Below are positions 31,030 to 50,435 of a stretch of DNA of 64,000 bases, in pieces. The translations under genes and the position numbers were made by a program. The notes below the pieces were generated by a model that saw only the letters and a program-made list of their open reading frames with translations, searched no databases and was not told where the DNA came from. Each line of letters opens with the position of its first letter. Position 1 is the first letter of the stretch. This DNA comes from an uncultured Candidatus Binatia bacterium (GTDB taxonomy: Bacteria > Desulfobacterota > Binatia > UBA9968 > CAXXLF01): contig OZ244621.1 in assembly GCA_965218425.1 (NCBI GenBank), forward strand, positions 2,816,001 to 2,880,000. Direction: 5' to 3'.

Positions 31030-31416
31030 TTGGAATCGGTAAATGAACCCCTTCTATTTACGGCCCGTCGAATTCTAATCTATGTGGAAGACCTGGAGCG
31101 GGCGATTTCCTACTATCGGGATATCCTCGGATGCAAGCCCCTGAACGGTGTAGACGGGGTGAATTTCGAATTTGCAACCTCGGGCCCGCCGATTGTCCTG
31201 CACAAGGGCGGCAAGGCATCGCGAGATCCTCGTGGCTTGAATGGTCCGGTGCCGAGCTTCCAGGTCCCCAACATTCAACAAGCGGTTGCTATCTACAAGC
31301 AACGCGGCGTCCGCATGGTCCAAGACGTCCTGGAAGTCTCCCACGGCTGGATCGCCTTCATCGCCGACCTTGAAGGCAACGTGATTCAAATCTATCAGGC
31401 GAAGACGGGACACTGA
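31030..31416 (+). CDS. VOC/glyoxalase family protein
   Basis: IYVEDLERAISYYRDILG...FIADLEGNVIQI. Confidence 0.85.
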   Translation: MESVNEPLLFTARRILIYVEDLERAISYYRDILGCKPLNGVDGVNFEFATSGPPIVLHKGGKASRDPRGLNGPVPSFQVPNIQQAVAIYKQRGVRMVQDVLEVSHGWIAFIADLEGNVIQIYQAKTGH

Positions 31417-31444
31417 CCTGGGAAGAGCAAAGATTTCGATTTGG

Positions 31445-31477
31445 GCAACAGCCCGACAAGACGTAACCCCTATTACT
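31445..31477 (+). repeat. 33-bp junction motif, copy 1 of 3
   Basis: GCAACAGCCCGACAAGACGTAACCCCTATTACT; other copies at 36364-36396 and 39552-39584. Confidence 0.8.
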
Positions 31478-31500
31478 ATCCCCGCGCATGCGGAGGAACC
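31476..31500 (-). CRISPR. solitary truncated type I-E-like CRISPR repeat
   Basis: Minus strand GGTTCCTCCGCATGCGCGGGGATAG resembles I-E repeats (GxTTCCCCGC....GCGGGGAT...); single copy. Confidence 0.5.
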
Positions 31501-31525
31501 CGACCGGCGTCGTCGAGGGCAGCTG

Positions 31526-32366
31526 ATGAAAGGGGGCGGGAAGCTGGAGGCATTAAACGAGGAGAGCAAGGCCCCCCATAGGCGTAGGAGTCGTAGTTGG
31601 CCTCAGTTGGTGCTTGGACAGATTGGCCGCATAAGGACGGAGCACCCCAATCTAAGCAAAGAGAAGATCTATCTATCGCTCAAGCCGTGGTGTGAGAGGC
31701 AGGATCTGAGGTGTCCAAAGCCCAGGAGCATTGGCCGGATCATAGCTGGGGCTGTGGACAAGATGAGAACGGTTTCCATGAAGATAAGGTCTAACGGTCG
31801 TAGAGTAACCAACAAGCCGAAGCGGGCAAGAGACCCCCAGGGTTTTAGAGCGAGCGGTCCTGGTGAGTGCGGGGCCTTCGATAGGGTGGAGTTGTTCCTT
31901 GATGGGCTAATGAAGTATGGGATCACCTTCACTGATGTCTACTCCCGGTTCTGTTTTGCCTGGGCGAGCCATAGCCATGGTTGTGAGCCAGCACGGGAAG
32001 TCTACAGGGTGCTCAGCGAGGTGTTTCCCTATCCGCTTCAATATGTGCTCACAGACAATGGCTCTGAGTTCATGAAGCACTTCGATGGGGAACTGAGGAG
32101 GCTGGACAAGGTCCACTGGCATACTTAATCCCAAGAGCCCAAAAATGAATGTCCATGTGGAGAGGTTTAACCGTACCCTTCAAGAAGAGTTTCTCGATTA
32201 TCATGAGGAGTTGCTCATGGAGCCGGCAGCCTTTAACCGAGAGTTGATCCCGTGGCTGTTGTGGTATAACGAGGAGCGGCCCCATTGGGGATTGGAGTTG
32301 AAGTCGCCTGTGCAATTTCTAATGGAGCAAAGACCCGAAGAGTGCAAAATGTGGTGGCCCAATACA
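31526..32366 (+). mobile_element. IS481-family-like transposase pseudogene (5' truncated, frameshifted near 32127)
   Basis: Integrase core TDNGSEF, then PKMN.HVERFNRTLQEEF and YNEERPH in the next frame; element ends ...AATACA. Confidence 0.8.
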
Positions 32367-32720
32367 GGAACTTGTTATTTCATGAAAGGAAGAGTATGTT
32401 CTCTCCACAAGCGGGTGCCTTACCCCTCTTGCCGCAACGGCTGGCGATGACCGAGTTGGCTGTCAGCGTGAATTGGCCAAGTGAGAGCTCCTTGGCGGGT
32501 ACCGGTCATCGAATGCATCGTCGGGGAAAATAGTTTCTGAACCGCGCGCCCAGCCCTCCCTTGTATTCGAAAATAGCCGTTGCATTTCGATAAAACTGCA
32601 TCCGAATCTCATGGGTAAAGTAAGCAAGGGCGTGTCGATGCGCACCCACATCGGCTCGGGCCTCTATACGTGAGCGAGTTACGGTACGGCCCGGCACAAC
32701 ATTATGAGGAGGTATTTCTA

Positions 32721-33857
32721 ATGAAAAGAATCAGAGTGGCCATCGCCGGTATTGGCAACTGCGCGAGTTCCCTTATCCAGGGTTTGGAATACTACAAGGG
32801 ACAGAACGAGAGTGCGTTTGCCGGCCTCATGCATACCCGGATCGGCGATTGGGGTCCGAGCGACATCGAGATCGTGGCGGCCTTTGATATTGATCGGCGC
32901 AAGGTGGGCAAGCGGGTGGAGGAGGCGATTTTCGCCGAACCCAACTGCGCCAAGATTTTTCAGCGCATCCTGCCGGTTTCCGACGTCGTGGTGCGGATGG
33001 GGCCGGTTCTCGACGGTGTGGCGTCTCACATGGCCGATTATCCCGATGACGAGGCATTCCGCCCCTCCGACGAGGATCCGGTCGATGTCGTCCAAACCCT
33101 CAAGGACGCCAAGGCTGAAATTCTAGTCTGCTACATGCCGGTAGGCTCTGAGGCGGCGGTTCGGAGCTATGCTCGGGCATGCCTGGATGCCGGGGTCGCC
33201 ATGATCAACTGCGTTCCGGTGTTCATCGCCTCCGATCCCGAATGGGCTGAGAAATTCCGTCGCGCGGCCCTGCCTATCATCGGCGACGACATCAAAAGCC
33301 AGGTCGGCGCCACTATCGTGCACCGAACCCTGACCCGGCTATTCGGAGACAGGGGCGTGTCGCTTGATCGCACCTATCAGTTGAACACGGGCGGCAACAC
33401 GGATTTCCTCAATATGAAGGCTTTAGACCGCCTGAAGTCCAAAAAGGTCTCCAAGACGGAGTCCGTGCAGTCGCAATTGGACGAACGCCTGGTTTCTCGG
33501 GACATTCATATTGGACCGTCCGACTACGTGCCGTGGCAGGACGACAACAAGGTTGCCTTCATCCGGATGGAAGGCCGCGGCTTCGGGGACGTGCCGTTGG
33601 AACTCGAGCTCAGGTTGTCGGTCGAGGATTCCCCTAACAGCGGTGGTGTGGTCATCAATGCCATCCGTTGCGCCAAACTGGGGTTGGAGCGTGGCATCGG
33701 CGGACCATTGGAGGCGCCCTCCGCCTACTATATGAAAAGCCCGCCCAATCAGATGCGCGATTCGGTGGCCTATGATTTGACCGAGAAATTTATTCAAGGC
33801 AGTGATGCCTGCGGTATTTCCAGTATGGAGGCTATTCGAACAACCGTCGGTGAATAG
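32721..33857 (+). CDS. ino1: myo-inositol-1-phosphate synthase
   Basis: GIGNCASSL, GDDIKSQVGAT, QLNTGGNTDF, SKKVSKT and EDSPNSGG; GAGGAGG RBS. Confidence 0.95.
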   Translation: MKRIRVAIAGIGNCASSLIQGLEYYKGQNESAFAGLMHTRIGDWGPSDIEIVAAFDIDRRKVGKRVEEAIFAEPNCAKIFQRILPVSDVVVRMGPVLDGVASHMADYPDDEAFRPSDEDPVDVVQTLKDAKAEILVCYMPVGSEAAVRSYARACLDAGVAMINCVPVFIASDPEWAEKFRRAALPIIGDDIKSQVGATIVHRTLTRLFGDRGVSLDRTYQLNTGGNTDFLNMKALDRLKSKKVSKTESVQSQLDERLVSRDIHIGPSDYVPWQDDNKVAFIRMEGRGFGDVPLELELRLSVEDSPNSGGVVINAIRCAKLGLERGIGGPLEAPSAYYMKSPPNQMRDSVAYDLTEKFIQGSDACGISSMEAIRTTVGE

Positions 33858-34725
33858 CTCCGACAATCAGGCTGCCAATAATAGTCCTGGCGGTGCAAAC
33901 GTTGCCCTGACCGTAGCCTCGCCCTGGGTGGAGCGGTTACTCATGCTCCACCGCCAAGTGCGCAGTGCGGTCGCGAATGCAGACCGCGCTGGAACCGGAT
34001 CAAGGAACGCAAAGGGCGACGATGTCAAACGCTTCGACCTGGTCGCCAATGACACGGCTTTAGCTGTCCTGCGGGGACTCCAGTTGCCGATCGTCGTCGA
34101 TTCCGAGGAGAGCGGACCTTTGGAAATCGGTTCCGGCACGCCGCGATACCGTATCGTCCTCGATCCGGTGGATGGGTCCGACAACTGGGCGCAGGGGTTG
34201 CCGTTGTCGGCCTTGTCCTGCGCCGTGCTGCCGGCTGACGCCCCCCTCCATCCCGATTGGGTCGAAGTAGCTCTGGTCGGGCCGCTCGAGCCGGACACGC
34301 CCCTGATCGCGCTCAAGGGCTCCGGTACTTGGCGCGGGAAGGAACGCCTCCGGACTTTCGGCGTCCGCAAGATTGCCGGGGCCACGATCTCAGTCGAACT
34401 CAATCATCATTCCCCGTCGCCGGGCCTTGCCCGTCTGATGGTCGCTGCCAGAGGCGCGCGGTGCTACGGTTGCGCGTCACGCGCCATCTCCCTGGTCGCC
34501 GAGGGCGCGATTGATGCCCATGTGGACGCGCGTGGCCGTCTGACCGCTGAAAGCTACCTCGCTGCCGCACGATTGGTGATCGAGGCGGGGGGCTGGGTTG
34601 TCAGCCCCGACGGTGCGCCCCTGGCGGCGCCGGAGAATTTGACCGACCGCGTCAGTCTGGTCGCGGCGTCGAGCCGGGACCTGTGCGATGAAATCGTGGA
34701 AGTTTTGGGCGATGAACAACACTGA
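33850..34725 (+). CDS. inositol monophosphatase/FBPase superfamily phosphatase
   Basis: SEE, LDPVDGSDN and R.YGCAS motifs. Confidence 0.85.
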   Translation: MNSSDNQAANNSPGGANVALTVASPWVERLLMLHRQVRSAVANADRAGTGSRNAKGDDVKRFDLVANDTALAVLRGLQLPIVVDSEESGPLEIGSGTPRYRIVLDPVDGSDNWAQGLPLSALSCAVLPADAPLHPDWVEVALVGPLEPDTPLIALKGSGTWRGKERLRTFGVRKIAGATISVELNHHSPSPGLARLMVAARGARCYGCASRAISLVAEGAIDAHVDARGRLTAESYLAAARLVIEAGGWVVSPDGAPLAAPENLTDRVSLVAASSRDLCDEIVEVLGDEQH

Positions 34726-36088
34726 CTTGACCACGGCGGCGCCGGAGATGGCGCTGATCCTGGCTGCCGGATTGGGGTCGCGGCTTCGACCGCAAACCCA
34801 TACTCCGAAACCCCTGACCAGGGTGCTCGGATTGACCCTCGCGGAACGGACCGTGTGCACCTTGCTGGGCGCCGGCATCCGCCGATTCCTTGTCACCCTC
34901 GGTCATGAGGCTGAAGCGGTCAGGACCCATTTTTCCGATATCGTCCAACGTCGCGGCGTCACGATTGACTTCATCGAAGCCGAGGACTGGGAGCGCGGCA
35001 ATGGCGCCAGTGCCCTGGCGGCCAAGGGTCGCACCGGCGAGGCGCCCTTCTTCCTGGTCATGATCGATCATCTTTTCGATCCCCGGATCGCCCGGGCACT
35101 GGCCGACTACCCTCTTGCACCGGGAGAAATGTGCCTCGCCGTGGACCGCGACAAGTACAGCATCTTCGATCTCGACGATGTTACTCGGGTCAAGATCGAC
35201 GACGGGCGCATTGCGAAGATCGAGAAGACGCTCAACGATTGGGATGCTTGCGACACCGGGGTCATGCTTTGTACGTCCGGCCTGTTCGAGGGTCTCGAGC
35301 GCGCGGCGGCACGCAACGAGCATGGACTCTCCGACGGGCTCAGGGAACTGGCGGGCGAAGGCCGCGCGAGTACCGTCGATGTGACGGGAATGCCGTGGCT
35401 CGATGTGGATACACCCGAGGCCTTGCGTGAGGCCGGACGAAGGCTCATGCGCGACCAGGCCGGTAAAACCCGGGACGGGCCGGTGGCGCGCCATTTCAAC
35501 CGACGAGTTTCCCGTTGGCTCAGCCGCTATCTGGCTGCCACAGCCGTGACGCCTAACCAAATCTCGCTGGCATCCTGGTTGCTGTCGTGTATTGCGGCGG
35601 GATTGATGGCATTGGGCGGCTATCCGACCCTGGCCGCCGGCGGCTTGCTGGCACAACTGACCTCGGTCGTCGATGGATGCGATGGCGAGATCGCCCGGCT
35701 AAAGCATTCGCAGAGCGAGTTCGGCGGCTGGTTCGACGCGGTCCTCGACCGGTATGCCGACGCCATCCTGTTATTCGGTCTGATGTGGCATGAATTCGCG
35801 TCAACCGGCACACACTTGTCTCTCGTGCTGGGATTCGCGGCGATCGTGGGGTCGTTTCTGAACAGCTACACGGCGGATAAGTATGACGGGTTGATGGCGC
35901 ACAGACTGCAAGGCGCCTCATACTTTCGGCTGGGCCGGGACATGCGGGTGTTCGTCATTTTTATCGGCGCCATCTTCAACCTTCCTCTCGTCACCCTGGG
36001 TGTTGTCGCGGTGGTGATGAATGTGGAGGTGGTTCGGCGAATTGTCGTTTGTGCCGGCGCGGACACCAACGTAAAGGAGCGACTTTGA
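34712..36088 (+). CDS. bifunctional CTP:inositol-1-phosphate cytidylyltransferase / CDP-alcohol phosphotransferase (IPCT/DIPPS-like)
   Basis: N-terminal ILAAGLGSRL...PKPL and WLDVDTPE; C-terminal DGCDGEIAR...GGWFDAVLDRYAD and RD.R motifs. Confidence 0.9.
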   Translation: MNNTDLTTAAPEMALILAAGLGSRLRPQTHTPKPLTRVLGLTLAERTVCTLLGAGIRRFLVTLGHEAEAVRTHFSDIVQRRGVTIDFIEAEDWERGNGASALAAKGRTGEAPFFLVMIDHLFDPRIARALADYPLAPGEMCLAVDRDKYSIFDLDDVTRVKIDDGRIAKIEKTLNDWDACDTGVMLCTSGLFEGLERAAARNEHGLSDGLRELAGEGRASTVDVTGMPWLDVDTPEALREAGRRLMRDQAGKTRDGPVARHFNRRVSRWLSRYLAATAVTPNQISLASWLLSCIAAGLMALGGYPTLAAGGLLAQLTSVVDGCDGEIARLKHSQSEFGGWFDAVLDRYADAILLFGLMWHEFASTGTHLSLVLGFAAIVGSFLNSYTADKYDGLMAHRLQGASYFRLGRDMRVFVIFIGAIFNLPLVTLGVVAVVMNVEVVRRIVVCAGADTNVKERL

Positions 36089-36363
36089 AACAGGCGGGTG
36101 AAGAGGGGCGTCATCCTCCTCTCGCCGGCGCGCCGGGAATGGCGGGGACGGCTGTGGTTCGAGTAACGGCCGCAAGGGTAGGGCGTTCGTTTCATTGCTG
36201 GGATCGCCGGGAGATATTGGATAGGGTGCGTAGCCGGGCGCAGATTGAAGATTACTTGATAGCGATAGTGCAGAATACCGAGCTGTCGATTGATCATGCA
36301 TGGCCAAAACTCAGAGCGGTTATGGCTCGGTTGGATCTATTGCGCTAATTAACCGACGTTTGG

Positions 36364-36543
36364 GCAACGGCCCGGCAAGACTTGATCCCTTCTACTCGGG
36401 ATGTCGCGTTCTAATGAGGGGGGCGTGAGGCGCTGCCGGCCCCGATTTAACGGCCCTTTCAGGCCCGTTTTTCGAGCCCGAAATTCCCCGGAAAATCCTG
36501 CCGGTTTCCGGCCCGTTTCCACTTAATTTTGTCAGAATTTCCA
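36364..36543 (+). repeat. repeat A copy 1 (33-bp motif plus ~150 bp with phased A/T tracts)
   Basis: Aligns with 39552-39735, e.g. AACGGCCCTTTCAGGCCCGTTTTTCGAGCCC is identical. Confidence 0.9.
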
Positions 36544-36563
36544 ATTATTGCCGACCGCCTACA

Positions 36564-36816
36564 GGGACTCTGCGGGAGCCGAGACCGGAAATCAGTGACT
36601 TAGAGAGGGTAGAGTGGACCGAGATCGGGACCAAGAAGCAGCTTGACTTGGCAATACTTCAAAGAGTTGTAACGGCATCTGAGCAGTTCGAGATGATCTT
36701 CCCGTCGCAACATGCGCCGAGCGTGACTGAGGGTCCGGCGATTCCGGTAGGCCGTTAACCCATGCCATTTGAGCAGGTGACAAGAGACCCAACAACAATT
36801 GATTGCGGAAGCGCCG
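36564..36816 (+). repeat. repeat B copy 1 (non-coding, contains IHF consensus)
   Basis: Aligns with 39286-39507; AATCAGTGACTTA at 36590-36602. Confidence 0.9.
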
Positions 36817-36829
36817 AGGTGAGATGGCA

Positions 36830-37096
36830 GAGTGTACTAGGGCCAAGGACTTTCGTAGAAGAGGTAGAGGATCGATTCTTACGTGATCGAGAAACTGGCT
36901 TGACCGGGGTCGGTGGCGAATTATCTAATAAGGCGGTATAGTTTAGTGAGGTGAGTGGAGATAGGCGGGCAAGTCGGGTTGTAATATAGTACGGTGGGCA
37001 ATATGGTTTGCCGGGTTGCCGGGAGTAGGGACCGAGGCCTGCGTGCGGTATTGAATGAAACTGAGGTAGCAATCAAGAATCCATGGGCCCGACCCC
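36830..37096 (+). pseudogene. degenerate 3' remnant of a Y1/REP-associated-type transposase with C-terminal HTH
   Basis: Broken frames give VLGPRTFVEEV and EIGGQVGL*YSTVGNMV; ends in GACCCC. Confidence 0.45.
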
Positions 37097-37205
37097 CACA
37101 GTCGTACCGGCGACCTCTGCCGACGCCGAGGTGAAAATCTCCACCACGAACTTCGGAGAGGACACAAATGATTTTCGTTCTCAATCAACCTAAAAAGAGG
37201 CCTGC

Positions 37206-38795
37206 ATGCGCGTATTTTTGATTCACGTTCGCGACCCGCAGTTCTATGCACTGCCGGCGAAAACCCGCGCCAAGAACGGCAACATCCGGGTCATGGGGTT
37301 CCCGCCCATCGGGATCATGTCGCTCTCTGCCGTGCTCAAGCGTGCCGGCCACGAGTGCGTTATGTTCGACCAGGCCAATCCGGCAACACCGACCGAGGTC
37401 ATTATCGAGGAGATCAAGCGGCGGCGGCCGGCGCTGATCGGCCTGAGTTTCCTGAGCACCACGAGCTACCCGTATGCGAAGATCCTGGCCCGGCAGATCC
37501 GGGCGGCCGATCCGACGGTGCGCCTGGCATTCGGCGGGGTATTCGCCACCTTGAACGCACAACTGGTGAAGCGGCAATGCCCGGAAGTGGACTTCGTTTG
37601 CCGCGGCGACGGTGAGCAACTGATTCTCGACCTGGTGGAGCGGCTGGAAGACCCTGCCGACGTGGCCGGGGTTACCTGGGCCAAGGACGGGAAACCGGTG
37701 CATAACCTGGACCGGCCCCTGGAACGCCACCTCGATCAGTGGCCGTTCCCGGACCGGGAGAGCCTTCCCTTGGACTTCATCGAGTCCATGCCCCTCGATG
37801 TGCCCGCGGTCCTGTCCATGGATCGATTTACGACCATGCAGACCTCCCGCGGCTGCCCGTGGCCGTGCGTGTTCTGCGACATTCCGATCTTCAACGAAGG
37901 GAAGTGGCGCTCCCGTTCTCCTCGGCATGTTTTGGAGGAATTCGACCACCTGCAGCGGATGGGCTACGGGGCGGTCTACTTCGTGGACGACCACTTTCTA
38001 CTTCAGCCCAAGCGGATCGAAGCGATCTGCAAGGGTATCAACGAGAGGGGGATCACCATTGAGTGGGGCTGCGAAGGGCGCGTCGACTCGGTCGTCCAGC
38101 ACCTGTTTCCAGCCATGGCCGAGGCTCACTGCCGCACCCTTATGTTGGGAATCGAGTCCGGGAGTCAAAGGGTGCTCGATCGATTAAAGAAGGAACAAAC
38201 CCTTGCAGAGGTTGAGACAACCGTGGCCAATGCCAAGAACGCGGGAATTGAAATCGTGCACGGGTTTTTCGTTATCGGGAGCCCGGACGAGAAGGCTGAG
38301 GATGTTCGCGCCACGTTCGACTTCGCCGCAAGGCTTCCCCTGGACACCTTCGGGTTCAACCGCCTTTGCGTCTACCGCGGGACCCCGCTCTGGCACGAAT
38401 ACGTAGAGCGCGGCTTGGTCAACGACACCGATGATTGGTACAAGTATTTCAAGTGCACGGAGATCGATCCTACCTGTCTTTCCGGCGAAGCCGTAAACGT
38501 CGAGCGGACCGCCGGTTTGCGGCGGCTGTATCGCTACAAGCTCAGGCACTTCCCGCTCCAGACGTTTCGACTGCTGAGGCGTTTCCTCCGTCACATGCCG
38601 CTGCGCGACTTGATCTATCTTATCGGTAAGCCGTTCTTGGGGGCGAAGCGAGGGCCGACCAAGGCCGAAGTGCTTTCCCGCGCGGTCGATCACGGCGAAG
38701 CAAAGTCGGCGGCGGCGGAGCTCACACAGGTATCCGACCCCGTCCTTGCAAAGGTTGTGGAGCAGTCACTGTTGGAACGCCGGCGGCTGCAGTGA
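37206..38795 (+). CDS. B12-binding domain radical SAM protein
   Basis: PPIGIMSLSA, GGVFAT, TSRGCPWPCVFC and GIESGSQRVL motifs. Confidence 0.92.
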   Translation: MRVFLIHVRDPQFYALPAKTRAKNGNIRVMGFPPIGIMSLSAVLKRAGHECVMFDQANPATPTEVIIEEIKRRRPALIGLSFLSTTSYPYAKILARQIRAADPTVRLAFGGVFATLNAQLVKRQCPEVDFVCRGDGEQLILDLVERLEDPADVAGVTWAKDGKPVHNLDRPLERHLDQWPFPDRESLPLDFIESMPLDVPAVLSMDRFTTMQTSRGCPWPCVFCDIPIFNEGKWRSRSPRHVLEEFDHLQRMGYGAVYFVDDHFLLQPKRIEAICKGINERGITIEWGCEGRVDSVVQHLFPAMAEAHCRTLMLGIESGSQRVLDRLKKEQTLAEVETTVANAKNAGIEIVHGFFVIGSPDEKAEDVRATFDFAARLPLDTFGFNRLCVYRGTPLWHEYVERGLVNDTDDWYKYFKCTEIDPTCLSGEAVNVERTAGLRRLYRYKLRHFPLQTFRLLRRFLRHMPLRDLIYLIGKPFLGAKRGPTKAEVLSRAVDHGEAKSAAAELTQVSDPVLAKVVEQSLLERRRLQ

Positions 38796-39285
38796 TAGGT
38801 TTTGCGATTTAGGGTGAGGGTTTGTAATCGCACATCAATCAGGCGGCCGGCCCAAGTAAACAAGGCTCCGGGATCAATTCTTGGTTAATGAGGCGACAAA
38901 CGGAGGCGGGTGTTTCTTGATGAGGCTGAATATCCTGCGAAGATTCATTTTTAGGATATCGGCCATTTCGCCGGCTGATGAATTCGATGTCGGAACAGCA
39001 AGAATAAAGACCTGACGCCGTTGCCCTCATCGTCCCGGATGCCCAACGGATTGCGGGCGCCGGACAACCGCGCGGTCGGCGCCGGGTCCGCCTGTGAGAC
39101 GGTCGTCCCCGGGGGAAGGCGGCCCGCGGTGACCCGGGGGTTGTCATCCACGCGGGGTAGGGCGGCTGGCACGGCCCGGGCTTGCGGCCCCAACGGCGGC
39201 CTCGTCCGCCGGTCTTGGCGTCCGGAGCTCAACGCAGTCATCCTTGGGTATCGTCGAATTAATGATAATCCATCCGTTTTGCGGC

Positions 39286-39507
39286 GGGACTCTGCGGGAG
39301 CGGAGACCGGAAATCAGTGACTTGGAGTGGGTAGAGCGGGGCGAGATCGGGACCAGACAGCTTGAGTTGACGATACTTCAAGGAGTTGTGACGGCATCTG
39401 AACGGTTCGAGTAGATCTTCCGGTTACAGCGATTCAGGCAGGGCGTCAACCCATACGACATGAGCAGGCGGCAAGAGACCCGACAACAATTGATTGGGGA
39501 AGTGCCG
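39286..39507 (+). repeat. repeat B copy 2
   Basis: Direct copy of 36564-36816 with a ~30 bp deletion; AATCAGTGACTTG at 39312-39324. Confidence 0.9.
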
Positions 39508-39551
39508 TATAGCCAGAGGGCTCTGTTAACACACTAAAAATATCGATTTCA

Positions 39552-39735
39552 GCAACAGCCCGGCACGACATGACCTTTTCTACTCGGGATGGTCGCCTTC
39601 CAATGAGGGGGGATTCGTGAGGCGCCGCCCGGCCCGATTCAACGGCCCTTTCAGGCCCGTTTTTCGAGCCCTAAACGCCCCGGAAAATCCGGCAGGTTTC
39701 CGGCCCATTTCCATCCGATTTTGTCGGAATTTCCA
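39552..39735 (+). repeat. repeat A copy 2
   Basis: Direct copy of 36364-36543. Confidence 0.9.
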
Positions 39736-39819
39736 TCTTTTTCCGTTCGCTTAACCGATATTCAAGCCGCGATACCGGAGTGATAAGCCGTGGGTTGAGC
39801 TGATTAGACCACTGCGTCC

Positions 39820-39905
39820 AAATAGACAGGACATTCCAAGAGAGAATTGGTACAATGCAAACTGGAATCCGAAAGGGAAGGAAACCCAAAATAGCAAGAA
39901 GGCGT
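39820..39905 (+). repeat. repeat C copy 1 (86 bp)
   Basis: 73/86 identical to 46715-46800 by manual alignment; followed by GACCCC at 39915-39920. Confidence 0.9.
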
Positions 39906-40040
39906 TCCTGAACCGACCCCGGTTTTACGCCATAGTCGATCGGTTGACCAGGTCACGCTCAAAGAGGGCAAGGCGGCCATCCTGTGGTTCGAACAGGTGC
40001 TCGCCCGCAAAATGAACATCATCGACAAAGAAGAGACCGC

Positions 40041-43000
40041 ATGAGCCAGAAATACGAGAAGCTGAAAACCCTGCTGAAGGAACTGTTCCAGCTCGACCAG
40101 CCCGACTTGGACTTCGGCCTCTACCGCATCATGCACGCTAAGGGGGCCGAAGTATCGCAGTTCTTGGACAAGGACCTGCTGCCGCAGGTGCTGACGGCGT
40201 TCGGCCAATACAAGAGCGCCGACAAGGCGGAGCTCGAAAAGGAGCTGTCGAAGGTGGTCGCGGGCATCGAGGCCGCAGGAATGAACCCCGACGACTCGCC
40301 CAAGGTCAAGGACCTGCGTTCCCAGATCAAGAGCGACACCGTGGACATCGGCGCGCTGGAGAGCGAGACCTACGATCATCTCTATAGCTTCTTCCGCCGC
40401 TACTACTCGGAAGGCGACTTCCTCGCCAAGCGCGTGTACAAACCTGGAGTCTATGCGATCCCCTACGAGGGTGAGGAGGTCGCGCTCCATTGGGCCAACA
40501 AGGATCAGTACTACATCAAGACCAGCGAGTACCTGCGCGACTACGTTTTCCGACTGAGGCCGAACGATGAGAAGAAGCCGATGCGTGTGCACTTCCGCTT
40601 GGCGGACGTCGTCGAGGGCGAGCACGACAATATAAAGGCTGCTGAGGGTAAGGACCGCATGTTCATCCTGGCCGCGCCGGGAGAATCAGGCCATGACTTC
40701 ATAGTCGTGGAAGACGGCGACCAGGGCGAGGAGATCATCATCCGATTCGAGTACCGGCCGGCCACACTCACCGATTGGCCGGAGGCCGGACGCGACGGAA
40801 AGAAGAAGCCCCCGGCCCAGAAGGACCTGAGCGCGCTTACCGCGAATCGCCTGCTGGCCGTGACCGACGCCGCATTGGCGCCATGGATCGTGGAACTGGG
40901 CAAGCTGCACGTCACAGCGGGCGGCGAGCAGGCCGACTATACGCGGCTGGAGGCGCACCTCAAGCGCTACACCGCTCGCAACACCTTCGACTATTTTATT
41001 CACAAGGACCTCGGGGCTTTCCTCCGCCAGGAGCTGGACTTCTACATCAAGAACGAAGTCATGCACCTGGACGACGTGGAGAATGAGTCCGTGCCGCGCG
41101 TCGAGCAGTACCTCTCCAAGATCAAAGTCATCCGCAAGATCGGGGGCAAGATCATCGACTTCCTTGCGCAGCTCGAAGACTTCCAAAAGAAGCTGTGGCT
41201 GAAGAAGAAGTTCGTGGTCGAGACACAGTACTGCATAGCGGTCGGGAGTATCCCCGAGGCGTTCTACGCCGAGATCGCTACGAACCAAGCCCAACGCGAA
41301 GAGTGGATGAAACTGTATGCGATTGACGAGATCCAGGGCGACCTGACCACGCCTGGCTACAGCAAGGAGCTCAAGCCCGAGTTTCTGAAAGCGTACCCAA
41401 CACTGGTCGTGGACACAAGACATTTCGATGTAGGCTTCACCGCACGGCTACTTGAAGCCTTTGGCGAAGTGGACGAGAAGACTGACAGCGTGTTGTTCCA
41501 CAGCGAGAACTTTCAGGCGCTAAGCCTAATGCAGGCACGCTATCGCGGCTACGTGGAGTGCATTCACATCGACCCTCAATACAATACACAAACCAGTGGT
41601 TTCTTGTATCGGAACACATATCAGCACTCTAGCTGGCTTGCAATGATGGCGGAACGGCTTGAAGCGGCAAAGAGCCTTATAACTGACGGTGGGACATTGC
41701 TTTGTCACATCGACGAGAACGAATACGAGCGCTTGTACGTCATGTGCGATGAACTGCTACTACCGAATGCGGGAACGGTCGTGTGGGACAAGCGAAATCC
41801 GATGCTCGGGCGAAGGGGGGTAGCGACCCAGCATGAGTATGTGCTGTGGCGCACTCAAGCTGCTGGTCCGCTTTATCTACGTAGTGCTAATCAACGTCTT
41901 ATCTTACAGAATGCTACGCGAATAGTCGCAGAATGCGGTGGTGTGACGGAGAGAGCAAGGAAAGCCTTCTCAAAGTGGGTGGCGGACTGTCCTGGTCTGT
42001 CTGGAGGAGAACGTGCAAATCGCTATCTTGTCGATGACGGTCGTGTCTTTCAAAGTGTTAGCATGTCCGCCCCAGAGAAGAGAACCGACGCGAAGTTCTT
42101 TGAGCCACTAATGCACCCTAAGACAGGAAAGCCGTGTCCTGTGCCGTTGTATGGTTGGTCTCGTGCCCCTGATACTCTCATAAAGCTGCTCGCAAAGAAC
42201 GAGATTCTCTTCGGTGAAGACGAGTCGGTGCAGCCTAGACTAAAGGTATTTCTAAGAGAGGATTCTCAACGACAAGTGCCGTCAGTTATCCAAGATTCTG
42301 GGCGTGGCAAAGCGGACATGGATAAGCTAGGTCTGAAGTTCCCTTATTGCCACCCACTATCGCTCTACATCAAATTGGTCGGTGCAGCCGCGCCGAGTAG
42401 CGCTGGGGTCGTTTTGGACTTCTTCGCTGGTTCTGGTACAAACGGTCACGCAGTAATCGAACTAAACCGCGATGAAGGCACTCGCAGAGGGGTGGTTCTT
42501 GTCGAGGTTGGTGAGCAGTTCGACAGCGTGTTAATCCCTCGTATCAAGAAAGCTACGTACAGCCCGGAGTGGAAAGACGGCAAGCCCAAGCGCCTTACGA
42601 CACCGGAGGAAGCCGAGCGCAGCCCACGCATCGTGAAGGTCGTCCGTCTCGAATCCTACGAGGACGCGCTCAACAACCTGGAGACCCGCCGAACCGACAA
42701 ACAGCAGCTTCTGCTCGACGACCCCGAGGCGTAAGGCGCGGACGGTCTCAGGGAGCAAGTACACCTCCGCTACATGCTCGATGTCGAGACGCGCGGCAGC
42801 CAGTCGCTGCTCAACGTTCAGGCCTTCGCCGACCCCACGGCCTATAAGCTCAAGGTCAAGCGGCCCGGTTCGGATGAGAGCCGCGAGGTCGACGTTGATC
42901 TGCTGGAGACCTTCAACTGGCTGATCGGCCTCACGGTCCAGCACATCGCTGCGCCCCAGACTTTCAGCGCCGCGTTCAAGCGTGACAGAGAGAAGCGCCT

Positions 43001-43312
43001 GCGGATGAAGGGCCGCCTTAAGCAGATAACAAACGGCCCATACTGGTTCCGTACCGTCACCGGTGCCACGCCCGACGGGCGCAGGACGCTCGTTATCTGG
43101 CGCAAGCTCATCGGCGAGCCGGAGCAGGACAACCTGGTGCTCGACGAGTGGTTCACCAGGCAGGGCTACGCGGCCAAGGATAGTGGGTTCGACCTCATCT
43201 ACGTCAACGGCGGCAACAACCTCGAGAACCTGAAGACCCCCGACGACCTGTGGAAGGTGCGGCTCATCGAGGAAGACTTCCATCGCCTGATGTTCGAGAT
43301 GGAGGGAGAGTG

Positions 43313-43313
<1 letters not shown>
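40041..43313 (+). pseudogene. type III R-M Mod-like DNA methyltransferase split by an in-frame TAA (42732-42734)
   Basis: [21 protein letters not shown] and LDFFAGSGT; motif IV reads DPQY; ORF 42774-43313 continues in the same frame. Confidence 0.8.
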
Positions 43314-46543
<3,230 letters not shown>

Positions 46544-46654
46544 TCGACCAACTTTGCATGGAGCACTGGCCGGGGGTAGGTAACATAAAAAAGGGGTCAA
46601 GCTCCAGTAGGATGGTGGTTGTAACGGCCATCGAACCTGAAAGGAGAAGACCCC

Positions 46655-46717
46655 ATGCTTTACGTCGGGATAGACTGTCACAAACGATACGCCCAGATAA
46701 ATGCCATCGACGAGAAA
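46655..46717 (+). mobile_element. 5' stub of an IS110-family transposase
   Basis: AAGGAG RBS then MLYVGIDCHKRYAQINAIDEK (GIDxHK start of the DEDD domain); truncated by repeat C. Confidence 0.65.
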
Positions 46718-46800
46718 TGGATAGGACGTTCCAAAAGTGAATTGGCACGATACAAGCTGGAATCCGAAAGGGAAGGGAACCTAAAATAGCAGGAAAGCGT
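46715..46800 (+). repeat. repeat C copy 2
   Basis: Direct copy of 39820-39905; followed by TGACCCC at 46804-46810. Confidence 0.9.
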
Positions 46801-46830
46801 GAATGACCCCGACTTCAGGAGGAAACAAAG

Positions 46831-47745
46831 ATGGCGACGATTTGGCGCTTGAACATCAAACCCGATGCAGAGGAGAACATCGACCCAAGAAAGTTTTGTA
46901 TCGATAAAAACATCCTTGGCATCGGCTGGCCAGTAGACTTGGATGAACCTCTGGACTGGAATGATTATTACGTCGCGGGTAAGAAGAAATACCGCGAGGA
47001 AAAGGGTGACAAGGGATGGTGGCCTGCCGTCAACGCGATTCGAAATAGGATGGAGATCAATGACCTTTGCTGGACCCGCGACTGGGACAGCAACTACTAC
47101 ATTGGCCAGATCACGGGCAATTGGAAATACCGTTCTACACGCAATTACCGTGATGCAGACATCGTGAACGTAAGGCCCTGTAGGTGGTTTCAAACCGGCG
47201 GCGTAGATTCGGTCCCAGGAAAGATACTGAATAGCTTCATCCGGAGTAGAACAGTTCAAAAAGTGCACGACGAAACATCGAGTTTCTACTCCAAACTCAA
47301 ATACAACCAACTGAGCAAGGAAGCCGCCTACGACTTGTCTAGTGATAAAAATCCAGACTTGTTTGCCCTGATTTCCTCAGAGGATTGTGAAGACATCGTT
47401 GGGATTTACTTGCAGGAGAAACAGGGCTATAGGCTCATTCCGAGTTCGTGCAGGCACGATACGGTCAAGACCGAATTCGTCCTGAAAACGACGGCAGGGA
47501 AGCAAGCATATGTGCAGGTAAAGCAAGGGGTAGCCATTAACACGGATAAATACAAATACGACTCTAGCAATCCGTGCGAGTGGTTCCTGTTTACGACCAA
47601 CGGGCAATATACCGGTAGAGGAGACAGCCATGTGCATTGTCTCGATCCCGATGATATGCGCGACTTCGCGTTGGCTAATCGAGAACTTATGCCGGACCGT
47701 GTTCGGACATTCATTGACTTCTGCTTTCCAGGTCGGCACTCATAA
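46831..47745 (+). CDS. hypothetical protein with Mrr-like restriction endonuclease C-terminal domain
   Basis: CEDIVGIYLQ..GY...EFVL...YVQVKQG; N-terminal GIGW region; AGGAGG RBS. Confidence 0.6.
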   Translation: MATIWRLNIKPDAEENIDPRKFCIDKNILGIGWPVDLDEPLDWNDYYVAGKKKYREEKGDKGWWPAVNAIRNRMEINDLCWTRDWDSNYYIGQITGNWKYRSTRNYRDADIVNVRPCRWFQTGGVDSVPGKILNSFIRSRTVQKVHDETSSFYSKLKYNQLSKEAAYDLSSDKNPDLFALISSEDCEDIVGIYLQEKQGYRLIPSSCRHDTVKTEFVLKTTAGKQAYVQVKQGVAINTDKYKYDSSNPCEWFLFTTNGQYTGRGDSHVHCLDPDDMRDFALANRELMPDRVRTFIDFCFPGRHS

Positions 47746-47827
47746 TTGTGACCGGTTTCCCCATCCCTTCCATCGCCTCGACGAGGTATTCGTCGGCGTA
47801 GCGGATCAGAAACAATTGAGAATGGCC

Positions 47828-47903
47828 TGGAAAATCCGAGAAATTCCGAGGCGAAACGACCCGGAAACCGCCCATGCAAAGCCCCTGAAAGGGGCGTGCA
47901 TCG
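47828..47903 (-). repeat. repeat A copy 3 (inverted, internally deleted)
   Basis: 47828-47869 matches the reverse complement of the A2 end at 33/42; also shares CCTGAAAGGG. Confidence 0.65.
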
Positions 47904-48044
47904 ACCACGCTCGATGCCGCCGGTGCCCGAGCGGCTTACCGACCAGGGGCAGGTTTTCGCTGGACATGAAGGCATGACTGGCTAGCGTGTGACGGAGGTC
48001 ATGGAGCCGGAGCTTATCCGCCCAGGCGTCCGCATCGTTCTTCC

Positions 48045-48362
48045 GTTCTGCTCAAATGCTCGCGTGCGGCACGCGACCTGGAGGAGATCTACGATTACGT
48101 TGATCGGCACGATTCGCCGGGTCGTACCGATTATGTGCCGGAGCGGATCGAAAAAGCGTTCAGCGGCCTTTCCGAACATCCCCAGCGCGGAAGTTACCCG
48201 AAGGAATTGCTGGATATTGGAATTCGGGAGTACCGTGAAGTTTTCTTCAAGCCCTACCGGATCATCTACCGGGTAACCGAGAACAATGTCTACGTGCTGG
48301 TGATTGCCGATGGGCGGCGTGACATGCGGGCTTTGCTGGAGCGACGCTTGCTGCAGGCGTAA
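48045..48362 (+). pseudogene. RelE/ParE family toxin lacking its start codon
   Basis: VLL...AARDLEEIYDY...LSEHPQRG...YRIIYRV...DGRRD; no in-frame ATG upstream of the conserved N-terminus. Confidence 0.75.
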
Positions 48363-48408
48363 GGCCCGCATTGTGCCGCGGCTCCTCCAGTATCCGGCAC
48401 TGGGCGGC

Positions 48409-48568
48409 ATAGCACCGGCCTTAACGGGCCGGTGAGGATTGAAACACTGTCTACGCGCCGCCTTTATCATCGCACGCTGGTTTTCCCCACACGCGTGGTG
48501 ATGGTCCGTTGTTTCAAGCTGTTTTATGGTGATTGCACGGTGTTCCCCACGCGCGTGGGAATGAACCG
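48409..48568 (+). CRISPR. orphan chimeric CRISPR mini-array (three repeats of two classes, two spacers)
   Basis: 37-bp ATAGCACCGGCCTTAACGGGCCGGTGAGGATTGAAAC; 34-bp spacer; 29-bp GTTTTCCCCACACGCGTGGTGATGGTCCG; 31-bp spacer; 29-bp GTGTTCCCCACGCGCGTGGGAATGAACCG. Confidence 0.75.
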
Positions 48569-48723
48569 CACATGGCATCCGTCGGAAATGAGATTTTGCC
48601 GGGCTGCGTTGGATCGATCGCCGGTACAGCGCCGGGGTTCGGCGGATCTGATCCGATGAGCACACCGGCCGGACGCAGCCTCACCGCGTTGCTGACCCAC
48701 GTCAGCGAAAACATCGACTTAGA

Positions 48724-48771
48724 GGCGGCAGGGCTCAGCTTTCTGATGATGTCGTTCACGTTCGCGGGCAT
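48724..48771 (-). pseudogene. 5' stub of an XRE/HigA-type antitoxin gene
   Basis: MPANVNDIIRKLSPA after an AAGGAAG RBS, then similarity is lost. Confidence 0.45.
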
Positions 48772-49010
48772 GATTACTTCCTTAAATCCACCCGAAGGCT
48801 CCTTTTTTATTTTTGAAACTACTCCCATTCAATGGTGGCGGGAGACTTGGAGGAAATATCATAATACGCTATCGCAACCTCCTTACCCTGAAAATTTTTG
48901 TCCTTCCCTTCCGCCTTGGGCTCAAGTTGACACTATCTCGCGTTACCATTACGCTCTGTTGCGAAGAACTCGATCCTTGATCTTGCATCTTTTTCCCCTG
49001 GAGCGCCCGG

Positions 49011-50435
49011 ATGGAAATCCGTACCGATACCGACGCGAAACAAGAGATGGCCGTACTGACCTTCGCCATACGGTTGATCCTTGCGGAGCTGGATCACCGC
49101 GTCTTGGTGGAGCGGGGTTTGGAAACCTTCTCCGACTTCGGCCGGTGCGAGAGGGTCGCAATCTTTCTGTTGGACCCCTCGGGCGAGACGTTACGGGTTG
49201 AAGGATGCACGGGCGCCAGCCTCGGAGCCGATCCGATTCAATTCCATGTGGCTGGAACTCCGTTTGAAGAGGTGATGAGCTCCAAGCAACCGGGAAAATT
49301 CCGGCTGAACCTGTTGGAGAAGGTCCCTTATCCCACTTACGATTCCGGCGAGGCGGAACGGCAGTGTCTCTGTGTGCCGTTGGTGGAGGCCAACAACAGG
49401 TCCCTGGGCGTGGTTACCTTCGACCAACCGGCCGGGGAATCTCTGGATTCCACCGCTATGCAGTGTGTCCTGATCCTTCAGTCGGTGTTAGCCGTAAGTC
49501 TTGAAAATGCCCGCGTGTTGGGGCGGCTGCGGGAGACTCACGCGGAGCTGGAAACCCTGTATCAGGCCAAGACGAAGATGATCGATCATCTTTCCCATGA
49601 GCTGAAAACACCCCTGGCCGTAATCTCGGCCTCTTCCAAGATATTGTCCAAGGATTCCGTGCGGCGCGATGAGAGACGGTTTTCGTCCGCTCTTCATCGC
49701 ATGGGCCGGAGCATTAAGCGGCTCCTGGAGCTGGAAGAAGAAGCGGGCGATATTGCGAAACAAGGAGGATTTGCAGCCAAAGGCTTATTGGAAGGAATGA
49801 TCCGGCAGTGCCGGGATCTTCTGGAGACCATGGTGGATCAAGGCGATCCGCCGGCTCCGCTGCTGGCCAAGCTCGCTTCGCGTATCGAAGAATGCTATTT
49901 GCCGCTGGTAGATGAACGGAGAGACAGTATCTCGTTGGTTGATTGGGTTCCCGACGTGCTTGCCGGTATTGAGCCTCTCCACCGGCATCGCGATGTGCGC
50001 TTGGAATTGGATTTGCGCCCAGGCCCGGCGGTACGGATGCCGGAGGGGCCGCTGCGCAAAGTGTTCAGCGGACTTATCCGCAACGCCGTTGAAAACACGC
50101 CGGATGGGGGTACCATCAGGGTGGAGGTCTCCCTGGAGGGTGATTCTGTTGCGCTTCGCGTGCGCGACTTTGGTTTAGGCATTAAAAAGGAGGATATGAG
50201 GCAGTTGTTTCACGGTTTTGTCCACACGGGCGACACCGAAGACTATTCATCCGGCAGGCCTTTTGATTTTAAGGCCGGGGGGAAAGGCCTGGACCTCCTG
50301 CGGAGCAAGCTTTTTGCTGAAAGATATGGATTTGATATCCAGGTTGAAAGCAAGTACAGTACCGGCAGCCTCTTCTCCCTGGTGTTCCCGCCCTCCATGC
50401 TCGCTCCGGAGGGGGAAGAACCGCGTGGACGGTAG
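49011..50435 (+). CDS. GAF-domain sensor histidine kinase
   Basis: GAF-like N-terminus; SHELKTPL, NAVENT and DFGLGI. TTGACA-17-TACGCT promoter at 48927-48955. Confidence 0.9.
   Translation: MEIRTDTDAKQEMAVLTFAIRLILAELDHRVLVERGLETFSDFGRCERVAIFLLDPSGETLRVEGCTGASLGADPIQFHVAGTPFEEVMSSKQPGKFRLNLLEKVPYPTYDSGEAERQCLCVPLVEANNRSLGVVTFDQPAGESLDSTAMQCVLILQSVLAVSLENARVLGRLRETHAELETLYQAKTKMIDHLSHELKTPLAVISASSKILSKDSVRRDERRFSSALHRMGRSIKRLLELEEEAGDIAKQGGFAAKGLLEGMIRQCRDLLETMVDQGDPPAPLLAKLASRIEECYLPLVDERRDSISLVDWVPDVLAGIEPLHRHRDVRLELDLRPGPAVRMPEGPLRKVFSGLIRNAVENTPDGGTIRVEVSLEGDSVALRVRDFGLGIKKEDMRQLFHGFVHTGDTEDYSSGRPFDFKAGGKGLDLLRSKLFAERYGFDIQVESKYSTGSLFSLVFPPSMLAPEGEEPRGR

What the first reader, a model, noticed from the sequence alone, without database searches (positions are those of the whole stretch)
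48409..48568. Cas-less chimeric CRISPR mini-array mixing two repeat classes
Seen: a 37-bp hairpin repeat ending GATTGAAAC (stem CACCGGCC/GGCCGGTG), a 34-bp spacer, a 29-bp I-E-type repeat, a 31-bp spacer, and a second, different 29-bp I-E-type repeat. All share orientation with canonical spacing, and no cas gene is in the 64 kb. Known: arrays normally carry one repeat family; ...ATTGAAAC repeats go with I-C/I-B/III-type systems and GTxTTCCCC...CCG with I-E; mini-arrays and solitary repeats serve as regulatory guides (CreA, scaRNA) or RNA anti-CRISPRs. Inference: one transcript could feed or decoy two different Cas systems, or repeat-spacer units from separate arrays were stitched together by the island's capture process.
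Basis: partly seen in the sequence, partly recalled or inferred. Interest (0 to 1): 0.82.

Follow-up and report, generated by a model that had tools for sequence, protein, structure and literature searches.

The report
Fused leftovers of two CRISPR arrays
The tiny CRISPR array that mixes two repeat types is real, but it is most likely a worn-out splice of two broken arrays in a junk-rich island rather than a designed two-system guide, and similar splices turn up in many unrelated microbes.

Summary
The sequence is as described: one type I-C repeat and two type I-E repeats in one orientation. Contigs from three studies carry it unchanged from inside R1 onwards. R1 belongs to the host's own broken I-C locus (intact cas5c/8c/7c; cas3 and cas4 cut). 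No I-E cas gene was found in the genome. Both I-E repeats have a stem-breaking change. R3 plus 38 bases recurs elsewhere, ending in a transposon-end motif. The unit lies among gene fragments at the edge of a 17.5-kb island. No promoter or target was found. The layout recurs: 29 distinct ATTGAAAC-repeat-to-I-E-repeat fusions in unrelated genomes and metagenomes. In the 18 from the wider scan the junction spacer runs 16-45 bases, only 5 spacer-sized, fitting random breaks inside spacers. The in-register look here is therefore probably chance. Best reading (0.72): inert remnant of an imprecise fusion of two arrays. A dual-system guide or decoy is unsupported. This scan noted mixed-repeat remnants on other DNA before. 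My literature searches found no description of cross-subtype fused arrays.

The parts
48409..48445 (+). R1: type I-C repeat (CRISPR-DR9-like), intact hairpin; 1 change from each repeat of the two-repeat array behind the host's broken I-C operon, and shares the unusual first base A with the first of them
48446..48479 (+). S1: 34-bp junction spacer, either a whole I-C spacer or a hybrid of an I-C and an I-E spacer; no target found
48480..48508 (+). R2: degenerate type I-E repeat, T at stem position 20 where array repeats have G; no fold better than shuffles (z 0.05)
48509..48539 (+). S2: 31-bp spacer between the two I-E repeats; no target found
48540..48568 (+). R3: type I-E repeat, A at stem position 21 where array repeats have G; a better-kept copy lies at G000:1125350-1125378 (-)
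48569..48589 (+). 21-bp stub (cut spacer or trailer) shared with the second copy; not a unique spacer
48590..48606 (+). Worn, cut-off copy of the genome's GGGGTC-tagged transposon-end-like module (TIRtron-like; label from earlier notes and PMC3733652)
48363..48408 (.). 46 bp between the parE stop and R1; origin unexplained, no leader or promoter match
48065..48362 (+). parE toxin gene with its 5' end replaced (Pfam positions 6-89; contigs of relatives carry the missing start as a loose end before 48065)
47778..48064 (.). Dispersed repeat module (up to 12 genomic matches) holding a tyrosine-integrase C-terminal fragment on - (Pfam E 0.004)
46567..46817 (+). Dispersed repeat modules (up to 50 genomic matches); the first looks like an IS110 left end with 21 codons of transposase (label recalled; no Pfam hit)
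48728..48783 (-). Short gene-start fragment, 74% identical over 57 bp to G000:2037107-2037163; resembles an XRE antitoxin start (label recalled; no Pfam hit)
48825..48881 (-). Fragment of a guaA 3' end, 75% identical to the host guaA at G000:927104-927161; att-like remnant at the island edge (att role inferred)
39984..46543 (+). Type III restriction-modification genes, cargo of the same island
31400..48891 (.). Island between flanks that are colinear with same-genus genome G001, which has other genes and no I-E repeat match at this site

Best explanation
An inert remnant made by imprecise joining of two arrays. (1, shown) The host has a decaying I-C locus whose repeat is R1, and leftover I-E repeats without I-E cas genes. 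(2, inferred) An old I-E array lost its cas genes, shrank to its trailer end (R2-S2-R3), was cut 21 bp after R3 by a transposon-end module, was copied to a second place and drifted. (3, inferred) A deletion or illegitimate recombination with breaks in or next to spacers joined a younger I-C repeat-spacer piece to this I-E trailer; S1 is the junction and is spacer-sized by chance. (4, shown as pattern, cause inferred) Further breakage left the unit among gene fragments at the island edge. (5, inferred) It has no leader or promoter, cannot grow (no I-C or I-E cas1), and yields no functional guide. The same kind of splice recurs across prokaryotes, mostly as one or two I-E repeats at the old end of an I-C- or I-B-like array.
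For: No I-E cas: Pfam cas6e and cas7e give 0 hits; tblastn with a full I-E protein set from G127 hits only a cas3 helicase; both cas1 genes are I-MYXAN type. I-E stems are damaged. The R3 block differs from its second copy at 2 of 29 repeat and 6 of 38 flank positions, so the repeat is not detectably better conserved (Fisher p 0.45). Four other joints beside repeats in this genome are out of register: 8-9 bp before the first I-C repeat inside cas4, mid-repeat on an integrase fragment at 2315.6 kb, 21 bp after R3, and about 10 bp before the next ORF at 208.3 kb. Neighbours are fragments. Analogues: 11 of 28 genome hits and 24 of 107 metagenome stretches (18 distinct) are real fusions; junction lengths 16-45, bins 10/1/5/2 against 6.3/2.0/6.3/3.4 expected for random spacer-spacer joints (chi-square p 0.32); 23 of 26 tabulated keep only 1-2 I-E repeats; cas7e was found in 2 of 10 carrier genomes.
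Against: R1 is intact and the host's cas5c, cas8c and cas7c reading frames are whole, so R1-S1 could be loaded if transcribed. S1 (34 bp) lies in the I-C range (host spacers 35-36 bp). In the narrower genome scan 10 of 11 junctions were 31-39 bp, more than the roughly 60% a random model gives for that window. No parent sequence was found, so no breakpoint or microhomology was seen. All analogues are metagenome assemblies, where chimeras at arrays are a known risk (PMC6617893). The conservation test has little power. Expression could not be tested.
Confidence: 0.72

Rival explanations
1. Exapted one-guide unit: whatever its origin, R1-S1 is transcribed, cut by host Cas5c and loaded into a Cas3-less I-C Cascade as a CreR/CreA-like repressor guide or Racr-like decoy, with the I-E hairpin as 3' end.
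For: Perfect R1 hairpin; whole cas5c, cas8c, cas7c with a broken cas3; I-C solitary repeats can act as Racrs (PMC10651486, passages).
Against: S1 has 0 PAM-plus-seed sites of 10 or more positions in the genome, against 0-22 for shuffled controls; 0 sigma-70-like promoters and no + strand terminator in 47600-49050; the upstream parE has lost its start; no match to the unit in 40 relatives.
Confidence: 0.1
2. Precise event at a repeat boundary: an integrase-driven or boundary-guided swap put an I-C leader/repeat module in front of an I-E array, so S1 is a genuine I-C spacer and the array changed subtype in register.
For: S1 length fits I-C; 10 of 11 genome analogues have 31-39 bp junctions; L025 has a full I-C operon, 22 I-C repeats and two I-E repeats at the old end; L040 shows I-C, I-E, then a worn I-C repeat.
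Against: In the scan that allowed 15-45 bp, 13 of 18 distinct junctions fall outside 31-39 bp.
Confidence: 0.09
3. Assembly artefact: a join at the 37-bp R1 repeat or through a shared spacer.
For: No contig spans all of R1; contig depths left and right of R1 differ in opposite directions between runs (about 4.4 vs 7.3, 6.6 vs 9.3, 9.9 vs 6.3; the tool warns that depth is no copy number); near-identical repeats with other spacers occur in the same runs.
Against: The mixed part (last 29-30 nt of R1 through R3) is one exact contig in three studies; the island's two flanks are colinear with G001, which a swap with the 208-kb locus would break; fusions recur as diverged variants (L087/L103) and in several assemblies (L073, L083, L118, L134).
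Confidence: 0.05
4. One reading: a purpose-built mini-array that feeds or decoys both an I-C and an I-E system (cross-subtype Cracr/Racr array).
For: Same orientation and near-canonical spacing; multi-spacer viral Cracr arrays exist and can carry altered repeats (10.1101/2024.10.29.618823, passages).
Against: No I-E system in the host; both I-E stems damaged; not on a phage, 0 hits for the mixed pattern in viral contigs; in that preprint the arrays always target variants of one type; analogues share no spacer or layout.
Confidence: 0.04

Closest known systems
Orphan (isolated) CRISPR arrays and array remnants (8.3% of arrays lack cas in Ou & McInerney, 10.1101/2022.05.19.492656; parts 1-2 of 4 read)
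   Same: Short repeat-spacer unit away from cas genes, with worn repeats.
   Different: Repeats come from two subtypes. In the parts read, that study tracks point variants of one repeat, not mixtures of subtypes.
Recombination between CRISPR arrays (Kupczok et al. 2015, PMC4524480, passages); conserved trailer ends (Lam & Ye 2019, PMC6617893, passages)
   Same: Array pieces joined by recombination; the oldest end survives.
   Different: Described events run between homologous repeats. Here the repeats are unrelated and the joint falls in or beside a spacer.
CreA/CreR mini-arrays and viral Cracr arrays (10.1101/2024.10.29.618823, passages; supplements closed)
   Same: Two or three repeats, some degenerate, not serving immunity.
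   Different: No promoter, no PAM-flanked partial match to a cas or toxin promoter, not beside a cas operon or on a virus, and two subtypes where Cracr arrays keep to one.
Racr solitary repeat units (PMC10651486, passages)
   Same: An intact host-cognate I-C repeat in accessory DNA.
   Different: Not solitary, no predicted promoter within 250 bp, no acr gene recognised nearby, not a prophage.
TIRtron/TIRYT terminal repeats (Di Nocera et al. 2013, PMC3733652, passages)
   Same: The module behind R3 starts at a GGGGTC-type motif like the GGGGWSAS consensus, and such ends are scattered through this genome's islands.
   Different: Only a worn 17-bp stub is present here; I did not test a link to a Y1 transposase gene.

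Membership tests
Type I-C repeat (CRISPR-DR9-like) | 37-nt hairpin repeat ending GATTGAAAC, matching the Rfam model | tested here: met
   37/37 positions, 37.2 bits, E 1e-5, below gathering score 45; hairpin z -4.8
Type I-C repeat (CRISPR-DR9-like) | Same repeat sits with an I-C cas operon | tested here: met
   1 change from both repeats behind cas5c-cas8c-cas7c-cas4' at 208 kb
Type I-E repeat | 29-nt repeat close to repeats of I-E arrays | tested here: met
   R3 1 change from L156, R2 2 changes from L073; subtype label from the I-E operon beside such repeats in G127
Type I-E repeat | Intact stem with GG at positions 20-21 (Cas6e cut site; position recalled) | tested here: not met
   R2 has T20, R3 has A21; 922 of 923 array repeats in 60 arrays have GG, though those arrays were fetched with a pattern that demands it
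Active CRISPR array | One repeat family, a leader and a cognate cas1-cas2 | tested here: not met
   Two families; 46 bp to a parE stop; only I-MYXAN cas1 in the genome
Active CRISPR array | Spacers match invaders | tested here: inconclusive
   No hit better than E 1 in phages; viral 17-18-mer hits extend to only 18-21 matching bases; habitat viruses are poorly sampled
CreA/CreR/Cracr crlRNA | Spacer with at least 9 PAM-proximal matches to a cas or toxin promoter | tested here: not met
   S1: 0 sites of 10 or more positions; S2: 1 site, within the control range. Runs of exactly 9 were not listed, and promoters of other hosts were not searched
CreA/CreR/Cracr crlRNA | Own promoter and Cas-dependent small RNA | not testable with these tools
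   0 consensus promoters; no RNA run available
CreA/CreR/Cracr crlRNA | Located in a cas locus or on a virus or plasmid; one subtype per array | tested here: not met
   Chromosomal island without cas; two subtypes
Racr (solitary repeat unit) | Single repeat downstream of a promoter in a mobile element, often near acr genes | tested here: not met
   Three repeats, no promoter match; acr genes not searched for specifically
Racr (solitary repeat unit) | Inhibits the cognate system | not testable with these tools
   Needs an interference assay
Orphan array remnant | Repeat-spacer unit far from cas genes, with decay | tested here: met
   Nearest cas locus about 90 kb away and of another type; worn repeats
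TIRtron end | GGGGWSAS-type motif at the element end | tested here: inconclusive
   The second copy has GGGGTC with a 5-bp loss against the family; the window copy is more worn
TIRtron end | Flanks a Y1 tyrosine transposase gene | not tested
   Taken from earlier notes e1-7823438 and e1-7689409

The most novel reading that the evidence does not exclude
Cross-subtype arrays are a recurrent and polarised fossil of CRISPR subtype turnover: I-C/I-B-like modules replace I-E systems in place, the break falls inside the arrays more often than random deletion predicts, and the I-E trailer stays as the old end of the new array. This locus is a stripped-down case. Array finders that assume one repeat would miss the class, and the trailers would give the order in which subtypes succeeded each other. 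Polarity and enrichment were not tested, because my pattern looked for one order and one orientation only.
Probability: 0.25. Interest if true: 0.6.

Novelty: new variant of a known kind. Interest (0 to 1): 0.36.

Why it matters
For this locus, little: it is probably debris. The wider point is that arrays joining unrelated repeat subtypes exist in at least 29 other places across bacteria and one archaeon. They show that breaks fall inside arrays and that a trailer repeat can record an earlier CRISPR subtype at a locus. They also warn that a spacer-sized gap between two repeat types is no sign of design, and that junction spacers may be hybrids that mislead host-virus matching. If R1-S1 proved to guide the host's Cas3-less I-C Cascade, it would show how a regulatory guide can arise from debris.

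Tried and rejected
Spacer targets: phages, plasmids, viral contigs, host arrays and all held loci, host PAM-seed scan: nothing above chance. No RNA holder listed; this says nothing on expression. Mixed pattern in viral contigs: 0. The unit in 40 relatives: only short matches to parE and unrelated genes. The I-E core in 123 genomes of the order: arrays and solitary repeats, none of the 13 inspected near an I-C repeat end or the transposon motif. A swap or inversion between R1 and the 208-kb array: rejected on flank synteny; GC skew shows no clear break at either place but cannot exclude it. Depth differences across R1: noted, not used as proof. 48569-48601 as a third spacer: rejected. The idea that a Y1 transposase reads R1 as a GTAG-tagged REP, or targets CRISPR hairpins: no support beyond two or three neighbours; loose I-E patterns gave 33 and 7 hits against 33 and 8 in a shuffle. 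The Pfam controls for cas6e and cas7e rang in only 1 of 14 control genomes, so I added tblastn. Rows dropped before counting: 17 of 28 genome hits (chance, or leaders of actinobacterial I-E arrays) and 83 of 107 metagenome stretches (mostly ATTGAAAC inside an I-E spacer; 3 with a composite repeat; 10 ambiguous: L058, L088, L092, L108, L111, L112, L120, L131, L147/L154, L152). Classification was by script plus eye. Junctions under 15 or over 45 bp, the reverse order and the opposite orientation were not scanned.

Full report
OBSERVATION. R1 matches Rfam CRISPR-DR9 end to end (37.2 bits, E 1e-5, gathering 45) and folds into a 9-pair hairpin (z -4.8). R2 and R3 are 2 and 1 changes from repeats of arrays fetched later. 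Public contigs from three studies carry 48416/48417-50400 without a difference, and a fourth run carries 48428-48649. One of these may be the source sample. The S1-R2-S2-R3 joints are bridged. The R1/S1 joint has 29-30 letters on the repeat side, and no record spans all of R1, as expected for a repeat of this length.

THE HOST'S CRISPR SYSTEMS. The genome (G000, 4.46 Mb, one contig, 97% complete) has two long arrays of a third repeat next to type I-MYXAN cas genes. At 208-213 kb lies a broken type I-C locus: cas5c, cas8c and cas7c are whole, cas3 is a 179-aa piece, cas4 stops after about 95 codons and runs within 9 bp into a two-repeat array, and cas1/cas2 are gone. R1 differs by one base from each of those two repeats and shares the first base A with the first. 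A fourth copy at 2315.6 kb follows a spacer and the last bases of another repeat, joined to an integrase-like fragment (label by eye). No I-E gene was found: Pfam cas6e and cas7e gave 0 hits with weak controls, and tblastn with the I-E proteins of G127 hit only a cas3 helicase. So the window is cas-less, R1 has a cognate Cascade elsewhere, and R2/R3 have none.

THE I-E SIDE IS OLD. R2 has T at stem position 20 and folds no better than shuffles; R3 has A at position 21. Array repeats have GG there (922 of 923, with the bias that my patterns asked for it). That position 21 is the Cas6e cut site is recalled. R3 and the next 38 bp recur at G000:1125312-1125378, with 2 of 29 and 6 of 38 differences (p 0.45). 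There the block goes on into a module found about 15 times in the genome, which starts at a GGGGTC motif preceded by unrelated DNA. Earlier notes on this genome call these TIRtron-like ends; the motif fits the consensus in PMC3733652 (passages), but I did not test the link to a transposase. The supposed third spacer is thus a 21-bp stub plus an element end.

CONTEXT. Against same-genus G001, homology stops at 31399 and resumes at 48892, in the same order and orientation, so the unit sits at the right edge of a 17.5-kb island. The island holds type III restriction-modification genes and short modules with up to 50 genomic matches. Within 1.2 kb of the array lie an integrase C-terminal fragment, a parE lacking its start, an antitoxin-like gene start and a guaA 3' fragment. 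The scan found 0 promoter-like sites and no + strand terminator. S1 has no PAM-plus-seed site of 10 or more positions in the genome (controls 0-22), and neither spacer has a credible match in phages, plasmids or viral contigs.

ANALOGUES. A pattern for ATTGAAAC, 28-42 bases, then an I-E core gave 28 hits in 185,579 species genomes; 11 are real fusions, in FCPU426, Gammaproteobacteria (2), Saprospiraceae, Deltaproteobacteria, Anaerolineae (2), ANME-2, Dissulfuribacterales, Spirochaetes and Nitrospira. All are metagenome-type assemblies. L025 lies on a 179-kb contig (long-read origin recalled from the record series) and has an I-C operon, 22 I-C repeats and two I-E repeats at the old end. With a gap of 15-45 bases, metagenomes gave 107 stretches; 24 are real fusions, 18 distinct. 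Their junction lengths are 16, 18, 18, 21, 21, 24, 25, 25, 26, 27, 29, 33, 36, 36, 37, 39, 44, 45. A model with one random break in each of two spacers predicts 6.3/2.0/6.3/3.4 in the bins 15-27/28-30/31-39/40-45; observed 10/1/5/2 (p 0.32). Under that model 24% of all spacer-spacer joints are 31-39 bp, so a 34-bp S1 needs no special cause. Against this, 10 of 11 junctions in the narrower genome scan were 31-39 bp. Of 26 fusions tabulated, 23 keep 1-2 I-E repeats (two end near a contig end), and cas7e was found in 2 of the 10 carrier genomes tested of 11 (completeness unknown). The pattern sees one order and one orientation, so polarity is untested.

MECHANISM. Shown: repeat classes, the cognate broken I-C locus, absence of I-E genes at the sensitivity used, decay and duplication of the I-E end, fragment-rich context, recurrence with variable junctions. 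Inferred: an I-E array lost its genes and shrank to its trailer; an element end cut it; an imprecise deletion or illegitimate recombination joined a younger I-C repeat-spacer piece to it; the unit is silent. I give this 0.72. Rivals: an exapted I-C guide or decoy (0.10), a precise boundary swap (0.09), misassembly (0.05), a purpose-built two-system RNA (0.04).

COMPARISON. It works like an orphan array remnant shaped by recombination (Ou & McInerney, parts 1-2 of 4 read; Kupczok et al., passages; Lam & Ye, passages). It fails the tested features of CreA/CreR/Cracr and Racr; in the Cracr preprint, arrays target variants of one type (passages; its supplementary tables were closed and could hold exceptions). 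The 'mixed repeats' phrase in PMC12282179 (passages) points to Ou & McInerney. PMC8482600 (passages) covers arrays usable by two effectors, not arrays of two repeat classes. Searches (listings only) returned no paper describing I-C/I-E fused arrays; the library lacks most subscription journals. This scan has noted mixed-repeat remnants in other genomes, unchecked by me.

VERDICT. Real, correctly seen, probably inert. A new variant of a known kind: cross-subtype array fusion, recurrent but imprecise. Interest 0.36.

Noticed in passing
L086, L094, L138 (whole loci): Arrays of a 29-bp composite repeat: I-E-type hairpin with a GATTGAAAC/G-type tail, 32-33 bp spacers, variable last base.
   Followed up: no
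G000:C1:208290-212650 (L003:10290-14655): Type I-C locus with whole cas5c, cas8c, cas7c but cut cas3 and cas4, no cas1/cas2 and a one-spacer array: a possible Cas3-less Cascade.
   Followed up: partly
G000:C1:2315608-2315690 (L021): Partial repeat, 35-bp spacer and a full I-C repeat whose 3' end supplies a GAGGA motif and abuts the ATG of the next gene.
   Followed up: partly
window 31475-31500 (-): A further I-E-like hairpin a few bases before the same GGGGT-tagged module that follows R3; not above chance on its own.
   Followed up: partly
G000:C1:223424-224392 and 2765369-2766488: Two I-MYXAN arrays with near-identical flanks and two variants of one repeat; the first array carries one repeat of the second's variant, a sign of exchange between loci. 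At the second locus the Cas8-like ORF differs from that of the first.
   Followed up: no
L040:1-200 (- strand): An I-E repeat between an I-C repeat and a worn I-C repeat, both at spacer distance (35 and about 30 bp).
   Followed up: partly
L192 (G127:C186:28000-32175): I-E array, a four-helix-bundle-like gene, a single I-C repeat, 31 bp, a single I-E repeat, then a paralog of the same gene (gene label recalled).
   Followed up: partly
window 46831-47745 (+): Intact 304-aa ORF with no Pfam match between two repeat modules; a nuclease-like motif near the C-terminus by eye.
   Followed up: no
window 46000-48400 versus 48416-50400: Contig depths on the two sides of R1 differ in opposite directions among runs, which may mean the island's left part varies in the population.
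   Followed up: partly
L044, L046, L048: In three actinobacterial genomes ATTGAAAC lies 36-38 bp before the first I-E repeat, apparently a leader motif.
   Followed up: no
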